Positions 14,599-62,321 of a stretch of DNA of 64,000 bases are shown here, piece by piece. Each line of letters starts with the position of its first letter. The first letter of the stretch is position 1. A program made the translations under genes and the position numbers. A model generated the notes under the pieces. The model searched no databases and was not told the origin of the DNA. It saw only the letters and a program-made list of their open reading frames with translations. Source of the DNA: Candidatus Cloacimonadota bacterium (GTDB lineage: Bacteria > Cloacimonadota > Cloacimonadia > Cloacimonadales > JAJBBL01); the NCBI GenBank assembly GCA_019429305.1, contig JAHYIR010000004.1, forward strand, positions 79,781-143,780, in the 5' to 3' direction.

Positions 14599-14692
14599 GG
14601 AGATGTGTCCGAGCTGGCTGAAGGAGCACGATTGGAAATCGTGTATACGTTTAAAAAGCGTATCTAGGGTTCGAATCCCTACATCTCCGCCA
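14599..14692 (+). tRNA. tRNA-Ser (anticodon GGA), class II with long variable arm, CCA encoded
   Basis: The cloverleaf reads directly: acceptor GGAGATG/CATCTCC, anticodon stem CACGA/TCGTG with loop TTGGAAA, long variable arm TATACGTTTAAAAAGCGTATC, T arm TAGGG-TTCGAAT-CCCTA, and discriminator G + CCA. Confidence 0.9.
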
Positions 14693-14794: not shown

Positions 14795-14809
14795 AATCCC
14801 TACATCTCC
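14795..14809 (+). repeat. direct repeat of the tRNA-Ser 3' end (att-like)
   Basis: 'aatccctacatctcc' repeats tRNA bases 14674-14688 exactly. With flanks the match is gtcaatccctacatctcc versus ttcgaatccctacatctcc. Confidence 0.7.
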
Positions 14810-14818
14810 TGAGTATTT

Positions 14819-14860
14819 TATCCACGAATGAACACGAATAAAACATAAATCAACACTAAC
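14819..14860 (+). repeat. repeat module G
   Basis: 'tatccacgaatgaacacgaataaaacataaatcaacactaac' has related copies at 38206, 59765 and 61804 (atccac[tg][ga]at..acac.gat.a.aaa). Confidence 0.6.
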
Positions 14861-14872
14861 TTTTTAAACAAT

Positions 14873-15004
14873 TGTCACCCTGAGTGACCCTTCACCAAAT
14901 TTGTAAGCACAACTGACTTCGTCGAGCTCGGAAGCAGCCACAAAGAAGTGTTTTCTTCGGTTCTTGTAGCTATAAGATTTGGTGAAGGATTGTATCGAAG
15001 GGGA
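14873..15004 (+). repeat. repeat module B carrying a nested module C (14915-14963)
   Basis: The B frame 'tgtcaccctgagtga ... ttgtatcgaagggga' encloses inner stem ccttcaccaaat/atttggtgaagg. The loop contains 'gacttcgtcgagctcggaagcagccacaaagaagtgttttcttcggttc', which is module C. Confidence 0.75.
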
Positions 15005-15045
15005 CGAAAATCTAAAACAGAGTCAGTGAATATAATCCTTGTTTT

Positions 15046-15079: not shown

Positions 15080-15123
15080 TAATGTTGGTATAGCAAGCAT
15101 GCATTTATGTTTATTGTAAGTCT

Positions 15124-15187
15124 GTGATGAGATCTCTCCATTCCAAACGACTCACTACCGTGATTCTTTCTCCAGTCGAGATGACAA
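15124..15187 (-). repeat. repeat module A (long form, inverted)
   Basis: The reverse complement is 'tgtcatctcgactggagaaagaatcacggtagtgagtcgtttggaatggagagatctcatcac'. About 105 bp, including 40 bp upstream (15083-15187), matches 33853-33957. Confidence 0.8.
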
Positions 15188-15251
15188 AGGAAAGGTCTTC
15201 ACTCAGGATGACATTAAGTCAGGCAACTATTCTGTTCAAGGTATCAGTAAT

Positions 15252-28750: not shown

Positions 28751-28846
28751 TGTCATCTCGACTGAAGAAAGGATCACGGAAGTGGATCTTTACTAACACC
28801 ACATTTGTCATCTCGACTGGAACGAAGTGAAATGGAGAGATCTCAT
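28751..28846 (+). repeat. 96-bp direct repeat, copy 1 (A-variant + A short form)
   Basis: It is identical to 29106-29201 except for 2 mismatches (cacgGaag/cacgAaag and aacaCcac/aacaGcac). Confidence 0.9.
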
Positions 28847-28916
28847 CGGAGACTAACTTATGATTATTATGTTCTTTCTTTTGTGTCGACAAAAGAAACG
28901 AACCAAAGAAAAACTC

Positions 28917-29050
28917 CCGGCTCTACAATTAACGGTTAAAAACCTTCTCGACTCTGCATCTTTCGCTAAACTTCTCGCTTCACTTGTCAAACAGTAGCTG
29001 CGAAGCAGATTCTCGTACAGTTTTCTTAACACCGTTATTTGTAATGCCGG
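28917..29050. repeat. 134-bp element with 20-bp terminal inverted repeats (MITE-like or long hairpin)
   Basis: The left end 'ccggctctacaattaacggt' matches the reverse complement of the right end, 'ccggcattacaaataacggt', at 17/20 positions. The interior is partly self-complementary (gcttc...gaagc). Confidence 0.6.
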
Positions 29051-29105: not shown

Positions 29106-29201
29106 TGTCATCTCGACTGAAGAAAGGATCACGAAAGTGGATCTTTACTAACAGCACATTTGTCATCTCGACTGGAACGAAGTGAAATGGAGAGATCTCA
29201 T
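29106..29201 (+). repeat. 96-bp direct repeat, copy 2
   Basis: See copy 1 at 28751-28846 (94/96 identical). Confidence 0.9.
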
Positions 29202-29312: not shown

Positions 29313-29383
29313 ACATATACTTCAGTCTCTGACTTATGTCATCCTGAGTGATTCAGCTCTTTTGCTGAATTGTATCGAAGGAT
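29313..29383 (+). repeat. repeat modules H + B (compact B copy)
   Basis: 'acatatacttcagtctctgacttatgtcatcctgagtgattcagctcttttgctgaattgtatcgaaggatg'. The first 39 bp repeat 28702-28740. Confidence 0.8.
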
Positions 29384-31218: not shown

Positions 31219-31371
31219 GACATACTCGGTTTTTGCAAGTTCTGTCCCCTACGATACAATTCTTGGTAGGAAAAGCAAGGAGCCACTCCAAGAATCACTC
31301 AGGGTGACAGCAGTCTATGTTATGAAAGGTGTGTCATCTCGACTGGAACAAAGTGGAATGGAGAGATCTCA
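31219..31371. repeat. left arm of an inverted-repeat pair (modules B inverted + A forward)
   Basis: It aligns end to end with the reverse complement of 33898-34065, including the linker between modules. Confidence 0.85.
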
Positions 31372-31408
31372 ACAGAGACTAACATCAAACACAAAAACAC
31401 ATTTCACC

Positions 31409-33659: not shown

Positions 33660-33897
33660 CAGAACACCTCAATCTTTTTCTTCTTTAAAATGCTCTTTTA
33701 GAGAGTCGATTCTATTAGTTTTGAGTAGTTCAGAGGTGTCAAATATTTTTGTAGTTTCTTATCTATTACATTTTAATGTTGAAACATGTTATGGCTTAAA
33801 GAATATGATGTTATCCATGTTCCAGAATGTAGTCGAGGTATCTCAGAACTGATGTTGGGAAAGCAAGTATGATCTTAGGTTTATTGTTGGTCGGTTA

Positions 33898-34065
33898 TGA
33901 GGTCTCTCCATTGCGAAAGACTCACTTTCGTGATTCTTTCTCCAGTCGAGATGACAAACTTTTTATAATATAGACTACTGTCACCCTGAGTGATTCTTGG
34001 AGTGGCTTCTTGTTTTGGCTTTCCAAGAATTGTATCGAAGGGGACAGAACTTGCAAATCCGAGTC
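33898..34065. repeat. right arm of the inverted-repeat pair (modules A inverted + B forward)
   Basis: Its reverse complement matches 31219-31371 at roughly 85-90% by eye. There is one 21-nt indel, because this arm has the long form of A. Confidence 0.85.
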
Positions 34066-34138: not shown

Positions 34139-34219
34139 TATGATAGTAGTTTAAAGTCGTCAATACTGTCCTGAGCTTGAAGAAGGCTCGGAAGCAGCCA
34201 CGAAGCCAACGAGGATGTT

Positions 34220-34308
34220 GACTTCGTCGAACTCGGAAGCAGCCACGAAGAAGTGTTTTCCTCGGTTCGATACAATTCGGAAAAAGAGCCGAATCACTCA
34301 AGATGACA
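34220..34308. repeat. module C (forward) abutting module B (inverted); a partial C core lies at 34185-34205
   Basis: 'gacttcgtcgaactcggaagcagccacgaagaagtgttttcctcggttc' is followed by 'gatacaattcggaaaaagagccgaatcactcaagatgaca'. Confidence 0.75.
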
Positions 34309-35446: not shown

Positions 35447-36889
35447 ATGAAGTTTCTCGACATAGCAATGGAGAAAGCAAGATCTTTAGGTGCCGATTAT
35501 GCTGATATCCGCATCCAAAAAACTCAAACAGAGATCATCTATTTGCGCAACATGAGTCTCAAGAATACCTCTCTGCATGAGCTTTACGGATACGGGATCA
35601 GAGTATTCAAAAACGGTGCCTGGGGATTTGCTCACAGTAATGTTTTTAATGAAGATGCTGTCGTTAAGACGGTTGAAAGGGCTTATGCTTTAGCAACCCA
35701 ATCTGGCAGATTAAAGTATGGAGACGGCTTGAAATTGGCAACAGAAAGGGCTTATATCGATACCTATCGTACACCTTGGTGTATTGATCCCTTCACAGTT
35801 CCATTATCTGAAAAGGTTGAAATGATGCTGGAGGTCAATAAGACGCTACTTGGTTATGAGGCAATCAAAAGGGCAATGTTCATGCTGGAGTGCACTAAAG
35901 ACGAAAAGCTCTTTGCTTCTACATTAGGTTCCCGCTTAGATCTAACTAATCTCTATATTGAACCTGCTTTTACGGCTACTGCAGTCACTGGTGATGATAG
36001 TCAATCCCGCAGTTTCAGAGATGGGGGAGTAGCTGCCGGCTGGGAATATATCAATAATCTGAATTTAATAGAGAAAGCTGAAAAGGTTGCCGAAGAAGCC
36101 ATCATGAAAGTCAATGCCGATAGTTTAGGGGCTGAAGAGAGAAGAACCCTTGTTCTTGATCCTATTCACATGTCTCTGACTATGCATGAATCGGTAGGAC
36201 ATCCCACTGAATTAGACAGAGTATTGGGCTGGGAAGCAGATTTTGCGGGGATCAGTTTTGCAACTCCGGAAAAGCTCAGTAACTTCCAATACGGCAGCAA
36301 AATAGTCAATTTTGTCGCTGACAATACCCTCCCCTGCGGGTTAGCTACGGCAGGTTATGATGATGATGGAGTACCCAACCAGAAATGGTATATCGTTAAG
36401 GATGGTATCTTAAGAGAATACGGAACTACTCGTGATACAGCTCCTCTTCTCAATTTAGGAATGAGTCGTGGATGTAACAGAGCGACCTACTACTTTGATT
36501 TCCCTATCAATCGCATTCCCAATTTATATCTGGAACCGGGGAAAGTGGAACTGTCTCCTAATGAACTAATAGCTGACTGTGATGATGCCATCTATATTGA
36601 AGGACAGGGAAGTTTTTCCATTGATCAGCATAGAGTGAATTTCCAGTTTGGTGGTGATATGTTCTGGGAGATCAAGAAAGGGAAGAAAGTCAGACCGTTA
36701 AAGAAGCTCATCTACAAATCAAATAATCCAGAATTTTGGAACAGTGTCGATGCTATCTGTGATCAACGATACTTCAGGACATTCGGTGTCACCAATTGCG
36801 GAAAAGGACAACCGGGTCAAAGAGGAAGAATGACTCACGGAGGTGCTACAGCACGCTTTCGTAACATCCGGGTAGGAGGTTCACAATGA
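35447..36889 (+). CDS. tldD: TldD family metalloprotease
   Basis: The HESVGHPTELDR (HExxxH) motif and the GxC region TNCGKGQPGQ are present. It is paired with a PmbA-like gene through an ATGA overlap. Confidence 0.85.
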   Translation: MKFLDIAMEKARSLGADYADIRIQKTQTEIIYLRNMSLKNTSLHELYGYGIRVFKNGAWGFAHSNVFNEDAVVKTVERAYALATQSGRLKYGDGLKLATERAYIDTYRTPWCIDPFTVPLSEKVEMMLEVNKTLLGYEAIKRAMFMLECTKDEKLFASTLGSRLDLTNLYIEPAFTATAVTGDDSQSRSFRDGGVAAGWEYINNLNLIEKAEKVAEEAIMKVNADSLGAEERRTLVLDPIHMSLTMHESVGHPTELDRVLGWEADFAGISFATPEKLSNFQYGSKIVNFVADNTLPCGLATAGYDDDGVPNQKWYIVKDGILREYGTTRDTAPLLNLGMSRGCNRATYYFDFPINRIPNLYLEPGKVELSPNELIADCDDAIYIEGQGSFSIDQHRVNFQFGGDMFWEIKKGKKVRPLKKLIYKSNNPEFWNSVDAICDQRYFRTFGVTNCGKGQPGQRGRMTHGGATARFRNIRVGGSQ

Positions 36890-38166
36890 GAGATGAATTG
36901 AAAAAAACCGGCGAGATCATCCAGAAGCTATGTAAAGCAGATGACTTTACTTTAATTGTTTCTCATAATCAAGATATTCACACCCGTTTTGCTCAAAATG
37001 GAATCACTCAACATATAGACGGGAAAAATCTCCAGATTCAACTCGAAGTTGCATTTGACAACAAGACCGGATCAGCTTCTGTTAATCAGCTTGATGAAGA
37101 TAGTTTAAAGAATTTGGTCGAAAAAGCTGAACATATTGCTCTGTTAAATAAACCCGATCCCGAATATGTTCCTTCAGAAAAGGCACATCCGTTAAGAGAT
37201 TTGATCAAACCTTCAGCAGCCACTTTAGAGTTACAAGTGGAGCAATTGGTCGATGGCATAGAAAAGTGTATTAAAAATGCCCAAGCAAAAGAAGCAAGGG
37301 CATCGGGTATCTCAGAACGGAGCATAGTAAAGAAATATATGCTTACCAAAAATGGATTCGAAGGTTATGACGAGAATGCTTCCTTTGCCCATTCCATGAC
37401 TATCAAAAAAGAGGGGATCGAAACAAAGGTTTCCGGTTCTGTCACCGATTATGCTCAGTTCTCGATGGAGCAGATGATTGAGCAGTTAAATAATCAATTT
37501 GATTCTCTGAAAGAACCGCAGACTATGGAAAAGGGTAAGCTAGCTGTTATTATGAGACCGCAAGCCGTTGTCCAGTGGCTCTATTATCTGATCTGGACAT
37601 TTCAAATGCGGGAAGCAGATGAAGGAACTAATCCCTATACTGATCAGATGGGTAAACAATTTTTCGGTGAGAATTTCAGTCTCAGATCGGTAGTCAGTAA
37701 CCCCAAGATATCTGCTCCTCTGTTCAATAATAACGGCATTCCCACGAAAGATATTACTTGGATTGAGAATGGTATTATCAAGAATATGCAAGCGGATCGT
37801 TATTATGCTCGTCAGAAAGAGATTGAACCCGCTTCGATATTCAATATCTATATCGAAGGTGGCAATACAAGTGAAGAAGAGATGTTGCAAAAGGCAGGAC
37901 GGGGAGTTATTCTCAATAATCTCTGGTACATCAGACCTATCGATATGAAAAAGGGTGAATGGACCGGCTTGACTCGTGACGGAGTACTCTATTTCGAAAA
38001 CGGTAAGATCCAACATGCTGTCACTAATTTCCGCTGGAATGAGATCTTGCACGATGCTACTAAACGGATCTTAGCACTCGGTCCGATGGAACAGGTCGAA
38101 CACAACGCCTTTGTACCCTCGATGCTGATCGATAATTTCAACTTCGTTGATGTAACGACATTTTAA
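36886..38166 (+). CDS. pmbA: PmbA/TldE family protein (TldD partner)
   Basis: It is translationally coupled to tldD, has the size and overall pattern of the PmbA_TldD family, and lacks the HExxxH motif, as TldE does. Confidence 0.75.
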   Translation: MRDELKKTGEIIQKLCKADDFTLIVSHNQDIHTRFAQNGITQHIDGKNLQIQLEVAFDNKTGSASVNQLDEDSLKNLVEKAEHIALLNKPDPEYVPSEKAHPLRDLIKPSAATLELQVEQLVDGIEKCIKNAQAKEARASGISERSIVKKYMLTKNGFEGYDENASFAHSMTIKKEGIETKVSGSVTDYAQFSMEQMIEQLNNQFDSLKEPQTMEKGKLAVIMRPQAVVQWLYYLIWTFQMREADEGTNPYTDQMGKQFFGENFSLRSVVSNPKISAPLFNNNGIPTKDITWIENGIIKNMQADRYYARQKEIEPASIFNIYIEGGNTSEEEMLQKAGRGVILNNLWYIRPIDMKKGEWTGLTRDGVLYFENGKIQHAVTNFRWNEILHDATKRILALGPMEQVEHNAFVPSMLIDNFNFVDVTTF

Positions 38167-38205: not shown

Positions 38206-38250
38206 ACATCCACTGATGTACACAGATTAAAAAACAATCAACACTGATAA
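38206..38250 (+). repeat. repeat module G
   Basis: 'catccactgatgtacacagattaaaaaacaatcaacactgataaa'. Confidence 0.6.
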
Positions 38251-38256
38251 ATTCAT

Positions 38257-38285
38257 TGTAGGGGCGGTTCATGAACCGCCCTTTT
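38257..38285 (+). terminator. repeat module D acting as a probable rho-independent terminator after tldD-pmbA
   Basis: The perfect 20-bp palindrome gggcggttcatgaaccgccc is followed by tttt, about 95 nt after the pmbA stop. Confidence 0.6.
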
Positions 38286-40114: not shown

Positions 40115-42163
40115 CTATTCAGTAGAAGCTACTACTCTATAAAATTTCTTTTGCTCGGTTAGCATCTGCGAATAAGCCGGTTCACCAACAACAGCGATCT
40201 CTTGCCAATCCTCAACGTAAGGATCATCAGATGCATAGATGATGTATGTGTTAACTCCTACAATAGCTTCCCAGCTTAAGTTGACCATGTTATCTGTTAT
40301 CGAGATCTCCACATTATGTGGAGGAAGAGGATTAAAATAAGCGATCGCAAGGTCTATATCGGCATTAAACACGAAACATATTTCAGCATCATAGAATTCT
40401 TCACTATCTAATGTCCAATTGTGAAATACCCAATCCTCAGCGGGTACGGCGAGAAGTTCAACATACTCTCCCAGGCCATAAAGAATAAATGCGGGATATT
40501 CATCTAACTCATAACTGTTCAGATGTACAGTTCCTTGACCAATAACATCAACCGAAAATCCATAATCGACAGCAATAAACATTAAACTGATTTCAATATC
40601 ATCTATGCACCAATAATTGATATTAGCTGAGTCACCTTCAAAAACCCAAGCCAAATAGATAGTCTCTGATCTTACCTGTTCTAAATAGATAAAACTCGAT
40701 ACTATTTCTGGTCCCAGATTACTATCCTGATCAATAACTGACCAGGTATCAGTCCATTCTAATCCATCAGTTGAATATTGCAGTTTAAGAGTATAAAGTC
40801 CACTATTATGATCTACATAATGCCTAAACTGAATTTCTAACCATACTTCCATATAGTCTGAGTTTTCGATGCTTTCATAGACAAGTGGTGGAGTAACAAG
40901 TTGAAATTCACCTGTTATAGACGGAGTTCCTGTAAAACTCATCTCTGGTGATATGCCACCGGCATAATTTGTGTTAGTTACACCCCAGTTAGATACATCA
41001 CTTGTCCAACCTAATGGTATTTGACCGGTTGGTGTGTTATCAAATGATTGAGAATATGGAAGTAGTGATTCTCCCAGTTCTTGCCATAAGAAATAAGGAT
41101 AGCCATCATTAATACTATAATCAATATCAGCTGACCATAAATCATCAAAATCCCAATCAACATAAGTATTTAAGGCATATGGGTAAGTCATTTCTTCCGT
41201 AATTCTACCAATACCCCCAGAACTTGATGATTGTCCGGATGTTTCTGTGTTCCAATAGCTGTTAGTTACGGTGGAACCCCATTGATATCCTACCAAACCA
41301 CCGACATATCCTTCCTCTCCACTCACAATTCCCGTGCTATAGCTGTTATGAACAGTGGCATTTCCAGATTGTCCTCCCACCAGACCACCGACATCCCAAA
41401 CTCCGCTCACATTACCTGTGCTATAACAGTTACTGATGGTAGGATACCAATATTGATACCCCACGAGCCCCCCGACATAATATACTTCAAATCCACCGCT
41501 CACATTACCCGTACTGTAACTGTTCATTACGGTGGAATAAGCACCTGCTTGGGCTCCAACAAGACCGCCGAGTTTGTAACCTGTTCCACTTATATTAGCT
41601 GTACTATAACTGTTGCTAACGGTAGCCATACTCTGCTCACCCACAAGACCACCTATACACATATAACCTGAGATATTTCCAGTGGTGTAGCAGTTGTCGA
41701 TGTAAGTAGAAGCAAATTGATATCCTGTAATGCCACCGACGTAAGAATACCCGGTTATATTAATGTTCGTCAAACGAAGGTTCTGTATATATACTCCGGC
41801 ATTCATGTAACCAAATAGTCCTATATAATTTGTTGTTGGTCGATTGATAAAAAGACCGTCAATTTTGTAGCCCAGTCCGTTATATGATGCACCAGTAAGA
41901 TAATTATCGCCATCTGTTCCTATTGGTATCCATCCTTGTCCATTAAACCAAGTAACTGTTTCCGAGGCATCAATGTCGGCTGTCTGGATAAAGTAGCTTG
42001 ACCAGTGAGAAGGGTTAACAGCTATCCAATAGAGGTTTCCCAATGAAGATATTTGATAAGGATTTGTTTCTGTTCCATCTCCTATTGACGGTGGTACTGC
42101 TGTCTGAGATAAGAGTAATGATGAAAGTAAAAGTAAAATGAAAAGCACTAATAAACGTTTCAT
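40115..42163 (-). CDS. secreted GLUG-motif repeat protein with C-terminal FN3-like domain
   Basis: A GGAGGT RBS precedes the second ATG (MKRLLVLFILLLL signal peptide). At least six ~29-aa repeats follow the pattern GGLVG.Q....V.NSYSTGNVSG. The C-terminal region is FN3-like (VNLSWEAIVGVNTYIIY..FYRVVA). Confidence 0.75.
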   Translation of the reverse strand: MKRLLVLFILLLLSSLLLSQTAVPPSIGDGTETNPYQISSLGNLYWIAVNPSHWSSYFIQTADIDASETVTWFNGQGWIPIGTDGDNYLTGASYNGLGYKIDGLFINRPTTNYIGLFGYMNAGVYIQNLRLTNINITGYSYVGGITGYQFASTYIDNCYTTGNISGYMCIGGLVGEQSMATVSNSYSTANISGTGYKLGGLVGAQAGAYSTVMNSYSTGNVSGGFEVYYVGGLVGYQYWYPTISNCYSTGNVSGVWDVGGLVGGQSGNATVHNSYSTGIVSGEEGYVGGLVGYQWGSTVTNSYWNTETSGQSSSSGGIGRITEEMTYPYALNTYVDWDFDDLWSADIDYSINDGYPYFLWQELGESLLPYSQSFDNTPTGQIPLGWTSDVSNWGVTNTNYAGGISPEMSFTGTPSITGEFQLVTPPLVYESIENSDYMEVWLEIQFRHYVDHNSGLYTLKLQYSTDGLEWTDTWSVIDQDSNLGPEIVSSFIYLEQVRSETIYLAWVFEGDSANINYWCIDDIEISLMFIAVDYGFSVDVIGQGTVHLNSYELDEYPAFILYGLGEYVELLAVPAEDWVFHNWTLDSEEFYDAEICFVFNADIDLAIAYFNPLPPHNVEISITDNMVNLSWEAIVGVNTYIIYASDDPYVEDWQEIAVVGEPAYSQMLTEQKKFYRVVASTE

Positions 42164-42365
42164 AGTAACCTCCATATATTAGATATAAAGTATATCAATA
42201 AGACTGAAAAAGTTCATTGAATTGTCAAGAAAATTTGATAAGATTAGGTTTTTTTATTATGATGTCAGTCACAGCTTAATAATTTAAATCAGATAAGCAA
42301 ATTCTCTACAAAGTCCAAAAAATCCACTTCTTGATTTTTACTTGCCCCAAAGCATCCTACTAGAC

Positions 42366-42437
42366 ACTTTCCTCGGTTCTTTAGAATTGATAACGTCGAG
42401 CTCAGAAGCAGAGAGTAAGAAGTAGTTCCCTCGGTTC
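42366..42437. repeat. degenerate module C-related repeat
   Basis: 'actttcctcggttc...cgtcgagctcagaagcag...agttccctcggttc' shares the cgtcgagctc.gaagcag and cctcggttc blocks with module C. Confidence 0.5.
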
Positions 42438-59764: not shown

Positions 59765-59810
59765 ATTATCCACTGATACACACAGATGAAAAAAAGATAA
59801 ACAGATATAA
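59765..59810 (+). repeat. repeat module G
   Basis: 'attatccactgatacacacagatgaaaaaaagataaacagatataa'. Confidence 0.55.
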
Positions 59811-59852: not shown

Positions 59853-59925
59853 TGTAGGGGCGGTTGACTTCGTCGAGCTTGGAAGCAGCCACGAGGAAGC
59901 ACTTTCCTCGGTTCATGAACCGCCC
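59853..59925 (+). repeat. repeat module D split by a 48-bp module C insertion (59866-59913)
   Basis: The sequence 'tgtaggggcggtt' + C + 'catgaaccgccc' compares with the uninterrupted 'tgtaggggcggttcatgaaccgccc' at 38257-38281. Confidence 0.85.
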
Positions 59926-61778: not shown

Positions 61779-61803
61779 CAAGTCCATTGGAAGGATAACA
61801 AGC

Positions 61804-61850
61804 ATTATCCACGGATGGACACAGATTATAAAAGATTAACACGAATTAAC
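61804..61850 (+). repeat. repeat module G
   Basis: 'attatccacggatggacacagattataaaagattaacacgaattaac'. Confidence 0.55.
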
Positions 61851-61971
61851 TAAAGACCCACCAGCGGAAGGATAGCAAAGATGTAAAAAGGGCAATTTTT
61901 CTAACATAGACTTCAGTCTGTATATTTGTATCCTAACTTTTCATCCAATAGAGTTACATTGTTTTTTTCAA

Positions 61972-62119
61972 ACCCGGAGCGTAGTTATGGGTGTAATAAT
62001 ATAGCCTGCGATTTTAGTCGCTGATAATGGAGCACCGCTCCATTTGGGTGGGTGGTAAAAGATCATTCAAATCCAGACAATAGTGTCTGGCTATCTTATG
62101 CCATACCCCTGCGGGGCGT
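61972..62119 (+). repeat. repeat modules E2, F and E in that order
   Basis: E2 is acccggagcgtagttatgggtg. F is cctgcgattttagtcgctgataatggagcaccgctccatttgggtgggtgg. E is ccagacaatagtgtctggctatcttatgccatacccctgcggggcgt. Confidence 0.75.
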
Positions 62120-62160
62120 GGTGTTTGATGCCTTGCTATGATAAGGTTTCTGCAAAGATT

Positions 62161-62247
62161 ATCCTATGATACATTCTGCCTAAAGCAGAGCAAGAAGCAA
62201 AGGTCAAAGCACTCAGGATGACAAAAAGATAAGACTGAAGTCTATGT
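62161..62247 (-). repeat. repeat modules B and H (both inverted)
   Basis: The reverse complement reads 'acatagacttcagtcttatctttttgtcatcctgagtg...gaatgtatcataggat'. The H-then-B order matches 28702-28740 and 29313-29383. Confidence 0.7.
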
Positions 62248-62321
62248 TACGGAAACAGCCATGAGCTCTGAAATACAAATGATACTTGACATAAATCAAT
62301 TTTATTAAAAGTCTTACCCTC

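What the first reader, a model, noticed from the sequence alone, without database searches (positions are those of the whole stretch)
59853..59925. Repeat module C is inserted into the hairpin loops of two other repeat families (nested elements)
At 38257-38281, module D is an uninterrupted perfect palindrome (tgtaggggcggttcatgaaccgccc). At 59853-59925 the same D sequence is split between 'ggggcggtt' and 'catgaaccgccc' by a 48-bp block. That block is 'gacttcgtcgagcttggaagcagccacgaggaagcactttcctcggtt'. The same block occurs at 14915-14963, inside the loop of a B module whose inner stem ccttcaccaaat/atttggtgaagg is intact on both sides, and free-standing at 34220-34268. The D insertion point is at the apex of the hairpin, and 'cggtt' occurs on both sides of the insert. 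One repeat type has therefore twice landed in the loop of another hairpin repeat, which argues that C is or was mobile and targets hairpin apices. Hairpin-targeted ssDNA transposition is known for IS200/IS605 TnpA and for REP-associated tyrosine transposases. That link is inference only, and no such gene is present in this window.
Basis: partly seen in the sequence, partly recalled or inferred. Interest (0 to 1): 0.65.

Follow-up and report, generated by a model that had tools for sequence, protein, structure and literature searches.

The report
Tiny insertion module nested in repeats
A 48-base repeat in an uncultured Cloacimonadota genome has been inserted into other intergenic repeats, often next to a hairpin loop, so it behaves like a very small parasitic mobile element whose enzyme is still unknown.

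Summary
D is intact at 38257-38281. At 59853-59925 the same sequence is split by a 48-nt block (59866-59913) that recurs at 14915-14962, 34220-34267 and, degraded, 42389-42436.

Scans of public genomes and metagenomes found the block only in Cloacimonadota-type contigs. There it interrupts at least four further repeat families that also exist uninterrupted, and it forms head-to-tail arrays with no spacer.

The unit is sharply bounded (GRCTTCG...CCTCGGTT). It has no terminal inverted repeats and no unambiguous target duplication. It follows a T in 11 of 12 contexts, TT in 8 and often GGTT, and it ends in CGGTT itself.

C is therefore best read as a miniature non-autonomous insertion module. "Targets hairpin apices" is only partly right: D and B are hit at the apex, other hosts in a stem arm, and two window copies are in no hairpin. 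Nesting is also reciprocal, because B-like modules sit inside C elsewhere.

No transposase lies in the window, and no HUH-type (Y1) transposase was detected in the related contigs, so the IS200/IS605-RAYT link stays an inference. This is a new member of a known kind (nested, mosaic small bacterial repeats) and of moderate interest.

The parts
59866..59913 (+). C copy (48 nt, GACTTCG...CCTCGGTT) inserted in D
   Evidence: Exact coordinates; nhmmer E=8e-16. The flanks rebuild D.
59853..59865 (+). 5' half of split D (tgtaggggcggtt)
   Evidence: Identical to 38257-38269.
59914..59925 (+). 3' half of split D (catgaaccgccc), followed by a T-run
   Evidence: 38265-38281 = 59909-59925, 100%. The terminal CGGTT of C plus this half re-forms a small hairpin.
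38257..38281 (+). Intact D: GTAG-prefixed 20-nt perfect palindrome followed by TTTT (the empty site)
   Evidence: DNA fold -9.7 kcal/mol, z = -5.4.
14915..14962 (+). C copy inside the inner hairpin of B
   Evidence: nhmmer E=1.9e-16.
14873..15005 (+). B module: tgtcaccctgagtga + inner hairpin (stem 14889-14900 / 14977-14988) + attgtatcgaaggggac
   Evidence: Alignment with the C-less B copies at 33979-34045 and 31309-31240 rc. Fold z = -3.4, with C in the apical region.
34220..34267 (+). C copy nested between a truncated C-type core and an inverted B-like module (not free-standing)
34167..34215 (+). tgtcctgag + truncated C-type core (GGAAGCAGCCACGAAG) of a 'C-long' composite
   Evidence: nhmmer partial hit at 34175-34205.
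34266..34308 (-). Inverted B-like module abutting the 3' end of C
   Evidence: blastn match 29337-29379 = 34308-34266, 91%.
42389..42436 (+). Degraded C copy (35-36 of 48 positions), preceded by a C 3'-end fragment at 42365-42378
33979..34045 (+). B copy without C, with a different inner hairpin
28905..29050 (-). F element (long hairpin), empty form of a host repeat that carries C in L001/L009
   Evidence: Alignment A3; fold z = -3.4.

Best explanation
C is a 48-nt non-autonomous insertion module of Cloacimonadota genomes. Its consensus is GRCTTCGYCGARCTCGGAAGCAGCCACRARGAAGnnnnTTCCTCGGTT.

Shown:
- C has sharp boundaries that are the same in many unrelated flanks.
- C interrupts other intergenic repeats that also exist uninterrupted.
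- C sits directly 3' of a T or TT, often GGTT.
- C ends in CGGTT, so one copy offers a site for the next and head-to-tail arrays build up.
- Composites such as C in hairpin G, or B inside C, are then amplified as units, which gives the mosaic intergenic regions.

Inferred:
- Movement is catalysed in trans by an enzyme encoded elsewhere in the genome.
- The small size, the lack of terminal inverted repeats, the lack of a clear target duplication, the fixed orientation relative to a short 5' target motif and the hairpin-rich hosts fit a single-strand cut-and-paste or copy mechanism best (HUH-type, as in IS200/IS605, RAYT or IS91).
- The enzyme family itself is a guess.
For: - Window, D site: D is empty at 38257-38281 and filled at 59853-59925, and the flanks rebuild a perfect 20-nt palindrome.
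- Window, B site: C lies inside B at 14915-14962 with the 12-bp inner stem intact.
- Other genomes: the C core occurs only in Cloacimonadota MAGs and related metagenome contigs.
- Empty and filled pairs elsewhere:
  - E: gtggcaagcgggaggtt|gccac (L003 empty; L003, L007 and L011 filled).
  - F: exactly 48 nt inserted after ACTGTTT in L001.
  - H: in L021.
  - G: in L019 and related contigs.
- Tandem copies with no spacer in L018 and L011 fix the unit at 48 nt.
- Left flank: T in 11 of 12 distinct contexts (binomial P=1.8e-5) and TT in 8 of 12 (P=4e-6) against intergenic composition. A 13th context, L018:2441, also follows GGTT.
- One conserved 7-bp hairpin lies near the 3' end. It is fully paired in 21 of 25 copies on the minus strand if G.T is allowed, against 3 of 25 on the plus strand.
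- There is no Rfam family for any module.
Against:
- No longer element bounded by C ends was found.
- Only one robust hairpin is present, whereas IS608-type ends carry one at each end (PMC2775950).
- The D insertion is flanked by a 5-nt direct repeat (CGGTT), which also fits microhomology-mediated template switching or deletion.
- Many 'copies' in other contigs share flanks. They are amplified composites, so the number of independent insertion events is smaller than the copy count.
- B-like modules inside C show that the direction of nesting is not always C into host.
- Window copies differ at 3-7 of 48 positions, so there is no sign of recent activity.
Confidence: 0.6

Rival explanations
1. 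No dedicated transposase is involved. The modules are shuffled by replication template switching and recombination at short homologies. Palindromes stall forks. A nascent strand ending in ...CGGTT re-primes on the CGGTT that precedes a C unit in a tandem array, copies one 48-nt unit and switches back.
For: The D insertion is bounded by CGGTT on both sides. Tandem C arrays that could serve as donors exist. Chimeras between C types and reciprocal nesting of B and C point to recombination between shared cores. No transposase was found.
Against: Most other contexts lack the 5-nt homology. Their left flanks are ...caact...gatgtt...cacatt...ctgttt and ...aggat, yet the inserted unit has the same 48-nt boundaries. 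The same unit has entered at least six unrelated host sequences in several genomes.
Confidence: 0.22
2. The split D (arms + C + CATG) is the original form. The 25-nt D at 38257 is a deletion derivative produced by slippage between the two CGGTT repeats.
For: Only two D copies are known, both in the window. A deletion between the 5-nt repeats would give exactly the short form.
Against: C occurs in at least 12 other contexts without the GGGCGGTT/AACCGCCC arms. In hosts E, F, G and H the empty forms are commoner or more widespread than the filled ones. Even a precise deletion would amount to seamless excision of the same 48-nt unit.
Confidence: 0.08
3. C is mainly a functional RNA or regulatory module, for example a structured UTR element, kept in hairpin loops because it works there rather than because it moves.
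For: The 3' hairpin is maintained through G.U-compatible changes on one strand. IS605 stem-loops retained at the RNA level behave similarly in Borrelia (PMC2775950).
Against: There is no consistent position or orientation relative to genes. The window sites lie between convergent, divergent and tandem genes. There is no Rfam match. The wobble pattern can also arise from G-to-A transitions in an unconstrained arm next to a conserved 3' end. Tandem arrays and degraded copies look parasitic.
Confidence: 0.08
4. Assembly artefact: repeats were mis-joined in a metagenome assembly and created false nesting.
For: The window comes from an uncultured organism, and repeats are hard to assemble.
Against: The same unit with the same boundaries is seen in independent assemblies from ENA MAGs, JGI metagenomes and another ENA record. 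Nested forms are shorter than a sequencing read.
Confidence: 0.02

Closest known systems
Small dispersed repeats SDR4/5/6 of Nostoc punctiforme (Elhai et al. 2008, Genome Res 18:1484; cited in PMC3116915; content recalled from my own knowledge because the paper is not held)
   Same: Very small (under 50 nt) intergenic repeats with sharp boundaries. They are found inserted inside other repeats and hairpins. They have no encoded enzyme and no classical inverted ends, and mobility is inferred from filled and empty sites.
   Different: Different phylum and unrelated sequence. SDRs are 21-27 nt and C is 48 nt. The preference of C for a 5' T/TT (GGTT) and its spacer-less tandem arrays are, as far as I know, not described for SDRs.
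IS200/IS605 ends and their miniature derivatives; REP/REPIN with RAYT (PMC3116915, PMC2775950)
   Same: No terminal inverted repeats. A hairpin lies close to an end. Insertion is oriented relative to a short 5' motif, with no clear target duplication. Hosts are hairpin-rich and therefore prone to being single-stranded. Free-standing stem-loops persist with G.U-type changes. D itself has the REP-like GTAG + palindrome layout.
   Different: Only one robust hairpin instead of one at each end. No Y1 transposase or RAYT was found nearby. C is not arranged as inverted doublets, apart from one inverted pair in L001. No sequence link to any known IS end was shown.
Insertion sequences that target REP or other palindromes: IS1397/ISKpn1, ISPpu9/ISPpu10, IS621 (Clement 1999 and Tobes & Pareja 2006, cited in PMC3116915; PMC12288879)
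   Same: A mobile element lands specifically inside another repeat family that forms hairpins.
   Different: Those are full insertion sequences of 1-2 kb that encode their own recombinase. C is 48 nt, too short for a double-stranded circle intermediate, and codes for nothing.
Bacterial interspersed mosaic elements (BIMEs), pneumococcal BOX modules and ERIC variants with internal insertions (own knowledge; PMC3049150 for pneumococcal repeats)
   Same: Intergenic regions are built from a small vocabulary of modules in variable order, and some modules are interrupted by others.
   Different: Those mosaics are described mainly as juxtaposed modules. Here exact filled and empty pairs show insertion of one unit into others, in a different phylum and with unrelated sequences.

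Membership tests
IS200/IS605-derived miniature element | Subterminal imperfect hairpins at both the left and right ends, recognised on one strand | tested here: not met
   Only the 3' hairpin (cols 27-33/39-45) is robust. The 5' half folds weakly and inconsistently.
IS200/IS605-derived miniature element | Insertion 3' of a specific tetra- or pentanucleotide, with no target duplication and a fixed orientation | tested here: inconclusive
   T at -1 in 11 of 12 contexts, TT in 8 of 12, and GGTT in 6 of the 12 plus a 13th context. Because C ends in CGGTT, a 1-5 nt duplication cannot be told apart from no duplication.
IS200/IS605-derived miniature element | A cognate Y1 HUH transposase in the same genome, in an element with the same ends | not testable with these tools
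   None in the window (Pfam on 50 ORFs). No tblastn match in the window or the fetched contigs. No split C ends around a gene. The rest of the genome is not available.
REP/REPIN-RAYT | GTAG tetranucleotide next to a short palindrome, present at high copy number | tested here: inconclusive
   D has GTAG + a 20-nt palindrome, but only 2 copies were seen and none in the related loci. C lacks this layout.
REP/REPIN-RAYT | Inverted doublets (REPINs) and a single-copy RAYT gene flanked by the repeats | tested here: not met
   C copies are single or in direct tandem. There is one inverted pair, in L001/L009. No RAYT match.
Classical MITE | Terminal inverted repeats and a fixed-length target site duplication | tested here: not met
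   The ends GACTTCGTCG... and ...TTCCTCGGTT are not inverted repeats. The flanks show no constant duplication.
Integron attC site or cassette | R'' (RYYYAAC) and R' (GTTRRRY) core sites bounding an imperfect palindrome, with recombination at G^TT | tested here: not met
   The junctions contain G^TT, but the left junction GTTGACT / GTTGGCT does not fit GTTRRRY and the + strand of C has no RYYYAAC (read directly from the sequences).
Known structured RNA family (Rfam 15) | Match to a covariance model | tested here: not met
   No hit at gathering score over the window. No hit at E<=1 around the C, B or D sites.
Intrinsic terminator (for D) | G+C-rich stem-loop followed by a T-run, downstream of a gene on the same strand | tested here: inconclusive
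   38262-38281 is an 8-bp G+C-rich stem followed by TTTT, 95 nt after the stop of 36886-38166 (+). The consensus scan did not call it. At 59909-59922 it called only the small hairpin re-formed by the end of C, and that copy follows no + strand gene.

The most novel reading that the evidence does not exclude
C is the substrate of a single-strand DNA transposition system in Cloacimonadota that moves a unit of only 48 nt, among the smallest mobile DNA units known. It recognises a T/TT (GGTT) site exposed in the folded strands of other repeats, so whole 'ecosystems' of repeats colonise one another, and C and B invade each other in both directions. Finding its enzyme could explain how repeats far below MITE size spread in bacteria, a question left open since the cyanobacterial SDRs and REPs.
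Probability: 0.25. Interest if true: 0.65.

Novelty: new member of a known kind. Interest (0 to 1): 0.4.

Why it matters
How very short repeats (tens of bases, no inverted ends, no gene) spread through bacterial genomes is only partly understood. REPINs with RAYT are the one reasonably supported case.

This lineage offers clean filled and empty pairs in several host repeats. It also offers a defined 48-nt unit, a simple flank rule and self-targeting tandem arrays, and together these narrow the search for the responsible enzyme.

The finding is also a practical warning. Intergenic regions of Cloacimonadota MAGs are mosaics of nested modules that can confuse assembly, gene calling and RNA-motif discovery. 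The organism is uncultured, which limits direct testing.

Tried and rejected
- Orthologous empty sites in close relatives. The window's proteins are not retrievable. The nearest SNF-transporter relatives (76-85% aa identity; P0002 and P0005 fetched) have a different upstream gene and no repeats, so no strain-level comparison was possible.
- Viral contigs: no C copy.
- Rfam at gathering and permissive thresholds: nothing for C, B, D or F.
- Transposase search. Pfam on all 50 window ORFs of 100 aa or more and NCBIfam on the unannotated ones. The end-of-window ORF was only read by eye and looks like a valyl-tRNA synthetase. Nothing was found.
- A longer autonomous element bounded by C halves: none.
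- CRISPR array in L021: repeats flank a C-like unit, but the tandem repeat finder found no array. They are copies of host repeat H.
- Integron attC, classical MITE and hammerhead-like readings of B and C were rejected on sequence (see the membership rows).
- Coding potential of C: substitutions between variants do not fall on third codon positions in any frame (inspection).
- Elhai 2008 and Barabas 2008 are not in the held library.

Full report
**What is in the window**

The window is a chromosomal stretch with about 38% G+C that carries housekeeping genes: FtsH, HslUV, TilS, trehalose metabolism, a BatA-D operon, ArgRS, folate genes and an SNF transporter. It also has a tRNA-Ser and, at its end, an ORF that reads like ValRS (by eye). 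Its roughly 8.6 kb of intergenic DNA is largely built from repeated modules.

- D (tgtag + the perfect 20-nt palindrome GGGCGGTTCATGAACCGCCC) is intact at 38257-38281.
- At 59853-59925 it is split after ...GGGGCGGTT by a 48-nt block, 59866-59913.
- The block recurs at 14915-14962 inside B, whose 12-bp inner stem (14889-14900 / 14977-14988) is intact, and at 34220-34267.

A profile search adds a degraded copy at 42389-42436 and fragments at 34175-34205 and 42365-42378. All lie on the + strand. The good copies match at 41-45 of 48 positions.

One correction is needed. The 34220 copy is not free-standing. It sits between a truncated C-type core that follows tgtcctgag (34167-34205) and an inverted B-like module (34266-34308).

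**Where else C occurs**

- A 23-nt C pattern hit only two 'uncultured Candidatus Cloacimonadota' MAGs among 185,579 species genomes.
- A degenerate core pattern hit 18 metagenome stretches.
- The same pattern hit no viral contig.

The window genome itself is not in those collections. Its nearest relatives (76-85% aa identity for the SNF transporter, P0002-P0005) are not syntenic upstream of that gene and carry no repeats there. A strain-level comparison of filled and empty sites was therefore impossible.

**Anatomy of C**

Thirty-one distinct copies with flanks and a 25-row alignment give a unit with the same two boundaries in unrelated contexts:

GRCTTCGYCGARCTC-GGAAGCAGCCAC-RARGAAG-nnnn-TTCCTCGGTT

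- In L018, two full units and a third, shorter (44-nt) C-type unit follow one another with no spacer. In L011 a full unit abuts a C-type core in the same way. The full-length repeats fix the unit at 48 nt.
- C has no terminal inverted repeats.
- The only robust structure is a 7-bp hairpin near the 3' end.
- That hairpin is fully paired in 21 of 25 copies on the minus strand if G.T is allowed, but in only 3 of 25 on the plus strand. This hints at selection on one single strand. It could equally reflect G-to-A transitions in an unconstrained arm beside a conserved 3' end.
- No Rfam family matches C, B, D or F.

**Evidence that C is an insertion**

Besides D, four other host repeats occur both empty and filled.

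| Host | Empty form | Filled form |
|---|---|---|
| E, hairpin gtggcaagcgggaggtt\|gccac | L003 | L003, L007, L011 |
| F, conserved ~140-nt long hairpin (fold z = -5.1 and -3.4) | L019 and window 28905-29050 | L001/L009, exactly 48 nt after ACTGTTT |
| H, repeat ...attcgcgtaatt\|tgcggtaaaaa | L021 | L021 |
| G, hairpin cttctttcttttgNNNNcaaaagaaagaag | L019 and relatives | L019 and relatives, many copies with identical flanks |

For G, the identical flanks mean one composite (C in G) was amplified as a unit.

Across 12 distinct contexts, the base before C is T in 11 (P=1.8e-5) and TT in 8 (P=4e-6) against intergenic composition. It is often GGTT, and a 13th context also follows GGTT. C itself ends in CGGTT, which explains the tandem arrays as self-targeting. 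It also makes the exact junction ambiguous by 1-5 nt, so 'no target duplication' and a 'T/TT duplication' cannot be told apart.

**Hairpin apex targeting**

- D is hit at the 5' edge of its 4-nt loop.
- B is hit in its apical region, and F in its apical part.
- E is hit two bases into the 3' arm, G in the middle of the 5' arm, and H in a 3' arm.
- The window copies at 34220 and 42389 lie in no predicted hairpin.

Hosts are thus mostly hairpin-forming repeats, but the geometry varies. The short 5' motif is the more constant feature. Survivorship, meaning that insertions in loops do least damage, could also enrich apical sites.

**Reciprocal nesting**

In L018 (520-640), L003, L008, L010 and L012, a B-like module lies between the first 9 nt of C (GACTTCGTC) and its 3' 33 nt. 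That module is tgtcAYcctgagtg, with or without an inner hairpin, followed by ttgtatcgaaggatc. Chimeras of the two C types also exist.

The system is therefore a mosaic in which modules invade or recombine with one another, not a one-way story.

**Mechanism**

It is shown that C is a discrete 48-nt unit that has entered many sequences after T/TT. It is inferred that an enzyme acting in trans moves it.

- No transposase is present among 50 window ORFs.
- No Y1 HUH match was found in the window or in about 165 kb of fetched contigs, L001-L026.
- No gene-bearing element with C ends was found.

Several features fit a single-strand HUH-type mechanism better than a double-strand one: the size (too short for a double-stranded circle or a bent synapse), the absence of inverted ends, the oriented insertion next to a short motif, and the foldable hosts. 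IS608 uses stem-loops at both ends and single-stranded DNA at the fork (PMC3116915, PMC2775950).

This remains a resemblance. The two-hairpin criterion is not met and the enzyme criterion is untestable here.

The main rival is template switching or recombination at the CGGTT microhomology. That fits the D site, but it does not fit the majority of contexts, which lack such homology.

**Comparison and verdict**

Several kinds of behaviour seen here are already known.
- Nested or mosaic small repeats: cyanobacterial SDRs, BIMEs, BOX and ERIC variants.
- Elements that target palindromic repeats: IS1397, ISPpu9 and IS621.

C is an undescribed family in an uncultured phylum. It has a clean unit, a simple flank rule and several filled and empty pairs. 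I rate it a new member of a known kind, of moderate interest (0.4). There is about a one-in-four chance that it marks a genuinely small single-strand mobile system worth biochemical pursuit.

Noticed in passing
window 14674-14688 and 14795-14809: The last 15 nt of tRNA-Ser(GGA) (aatccctacatctcc) are repeated exactly 106 nt downstream. This looks like an att-type scar of an element that once integrated at the tRNA.
   Followed up: no
window 28905-29050 (-); L019 3625-3762, 7020-7130; L001 1225-1560: F is a ~140-nt long imperfect hairpin conserved at about 70-80% identity between the window and contigs from other, apparently different, genomes (not verified). It is multi-copy there and has no Rfam match (fold z = -5.1 and -3.4). 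It is either an unknown structured RNA or a larger miniature element, and it hosts C in L001.
   Followed up: partly
window 14873-15005, 33979-34045, 31240-31309 (-), 29337-29381, 34266-34308 (-); L018 552-598: B family: conserved ends (tgtcaYcctgagtga ... ttgtatcgaagg) around an inner hairpin. The hairpin sequence differs from copy to copy but always pairs, which looks like compensatory change or cassette-like replacement.
   Followed up: partly
window 38208-38234, 59768-59794, 61807-61833 (variant 14820-14840): Module A (atccactgatRYacacagat + A-rich tail) precedes both D copies and occurs elsewhere. D therefore looks like the 3' part of an A-D composite.
   Followed up: no
window 28751-28846 and 29106-29201: A 96-nt direct duplication at 98% identity lies in a 900-nt mosaic intergenic region. 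Related pieces occur at 15109-15188, 31332-31383 and 33879-33958 (gtcatctcgactgg...gagagatctc modules).
   Followed up: no
window 40115-42175 (-): A GLUG-motif protein whose gene shows 81-93 nt internal periodic repeats (families D2 and D6; Pfam hit).
   Followed up: no
window 61779-62321 vs L022 3335-4156: The downstream synteny SNF-NUDIX-ValRS is shared with an 85%-identical relative. Where that relative has a DUF3795 gene, the window has 540 nt of repeat modules.
   Followed up: no
L001 1270-1395 (= L009, L004 2086-2200): A second, ~135-nt insertion in F consists of a 5'-variant C (ATTGTCGTCGAGCTC...CGGTG) joined to a ~90-nt segment with its own hairpin. It may be a larger relative of C.
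   Followed up: no
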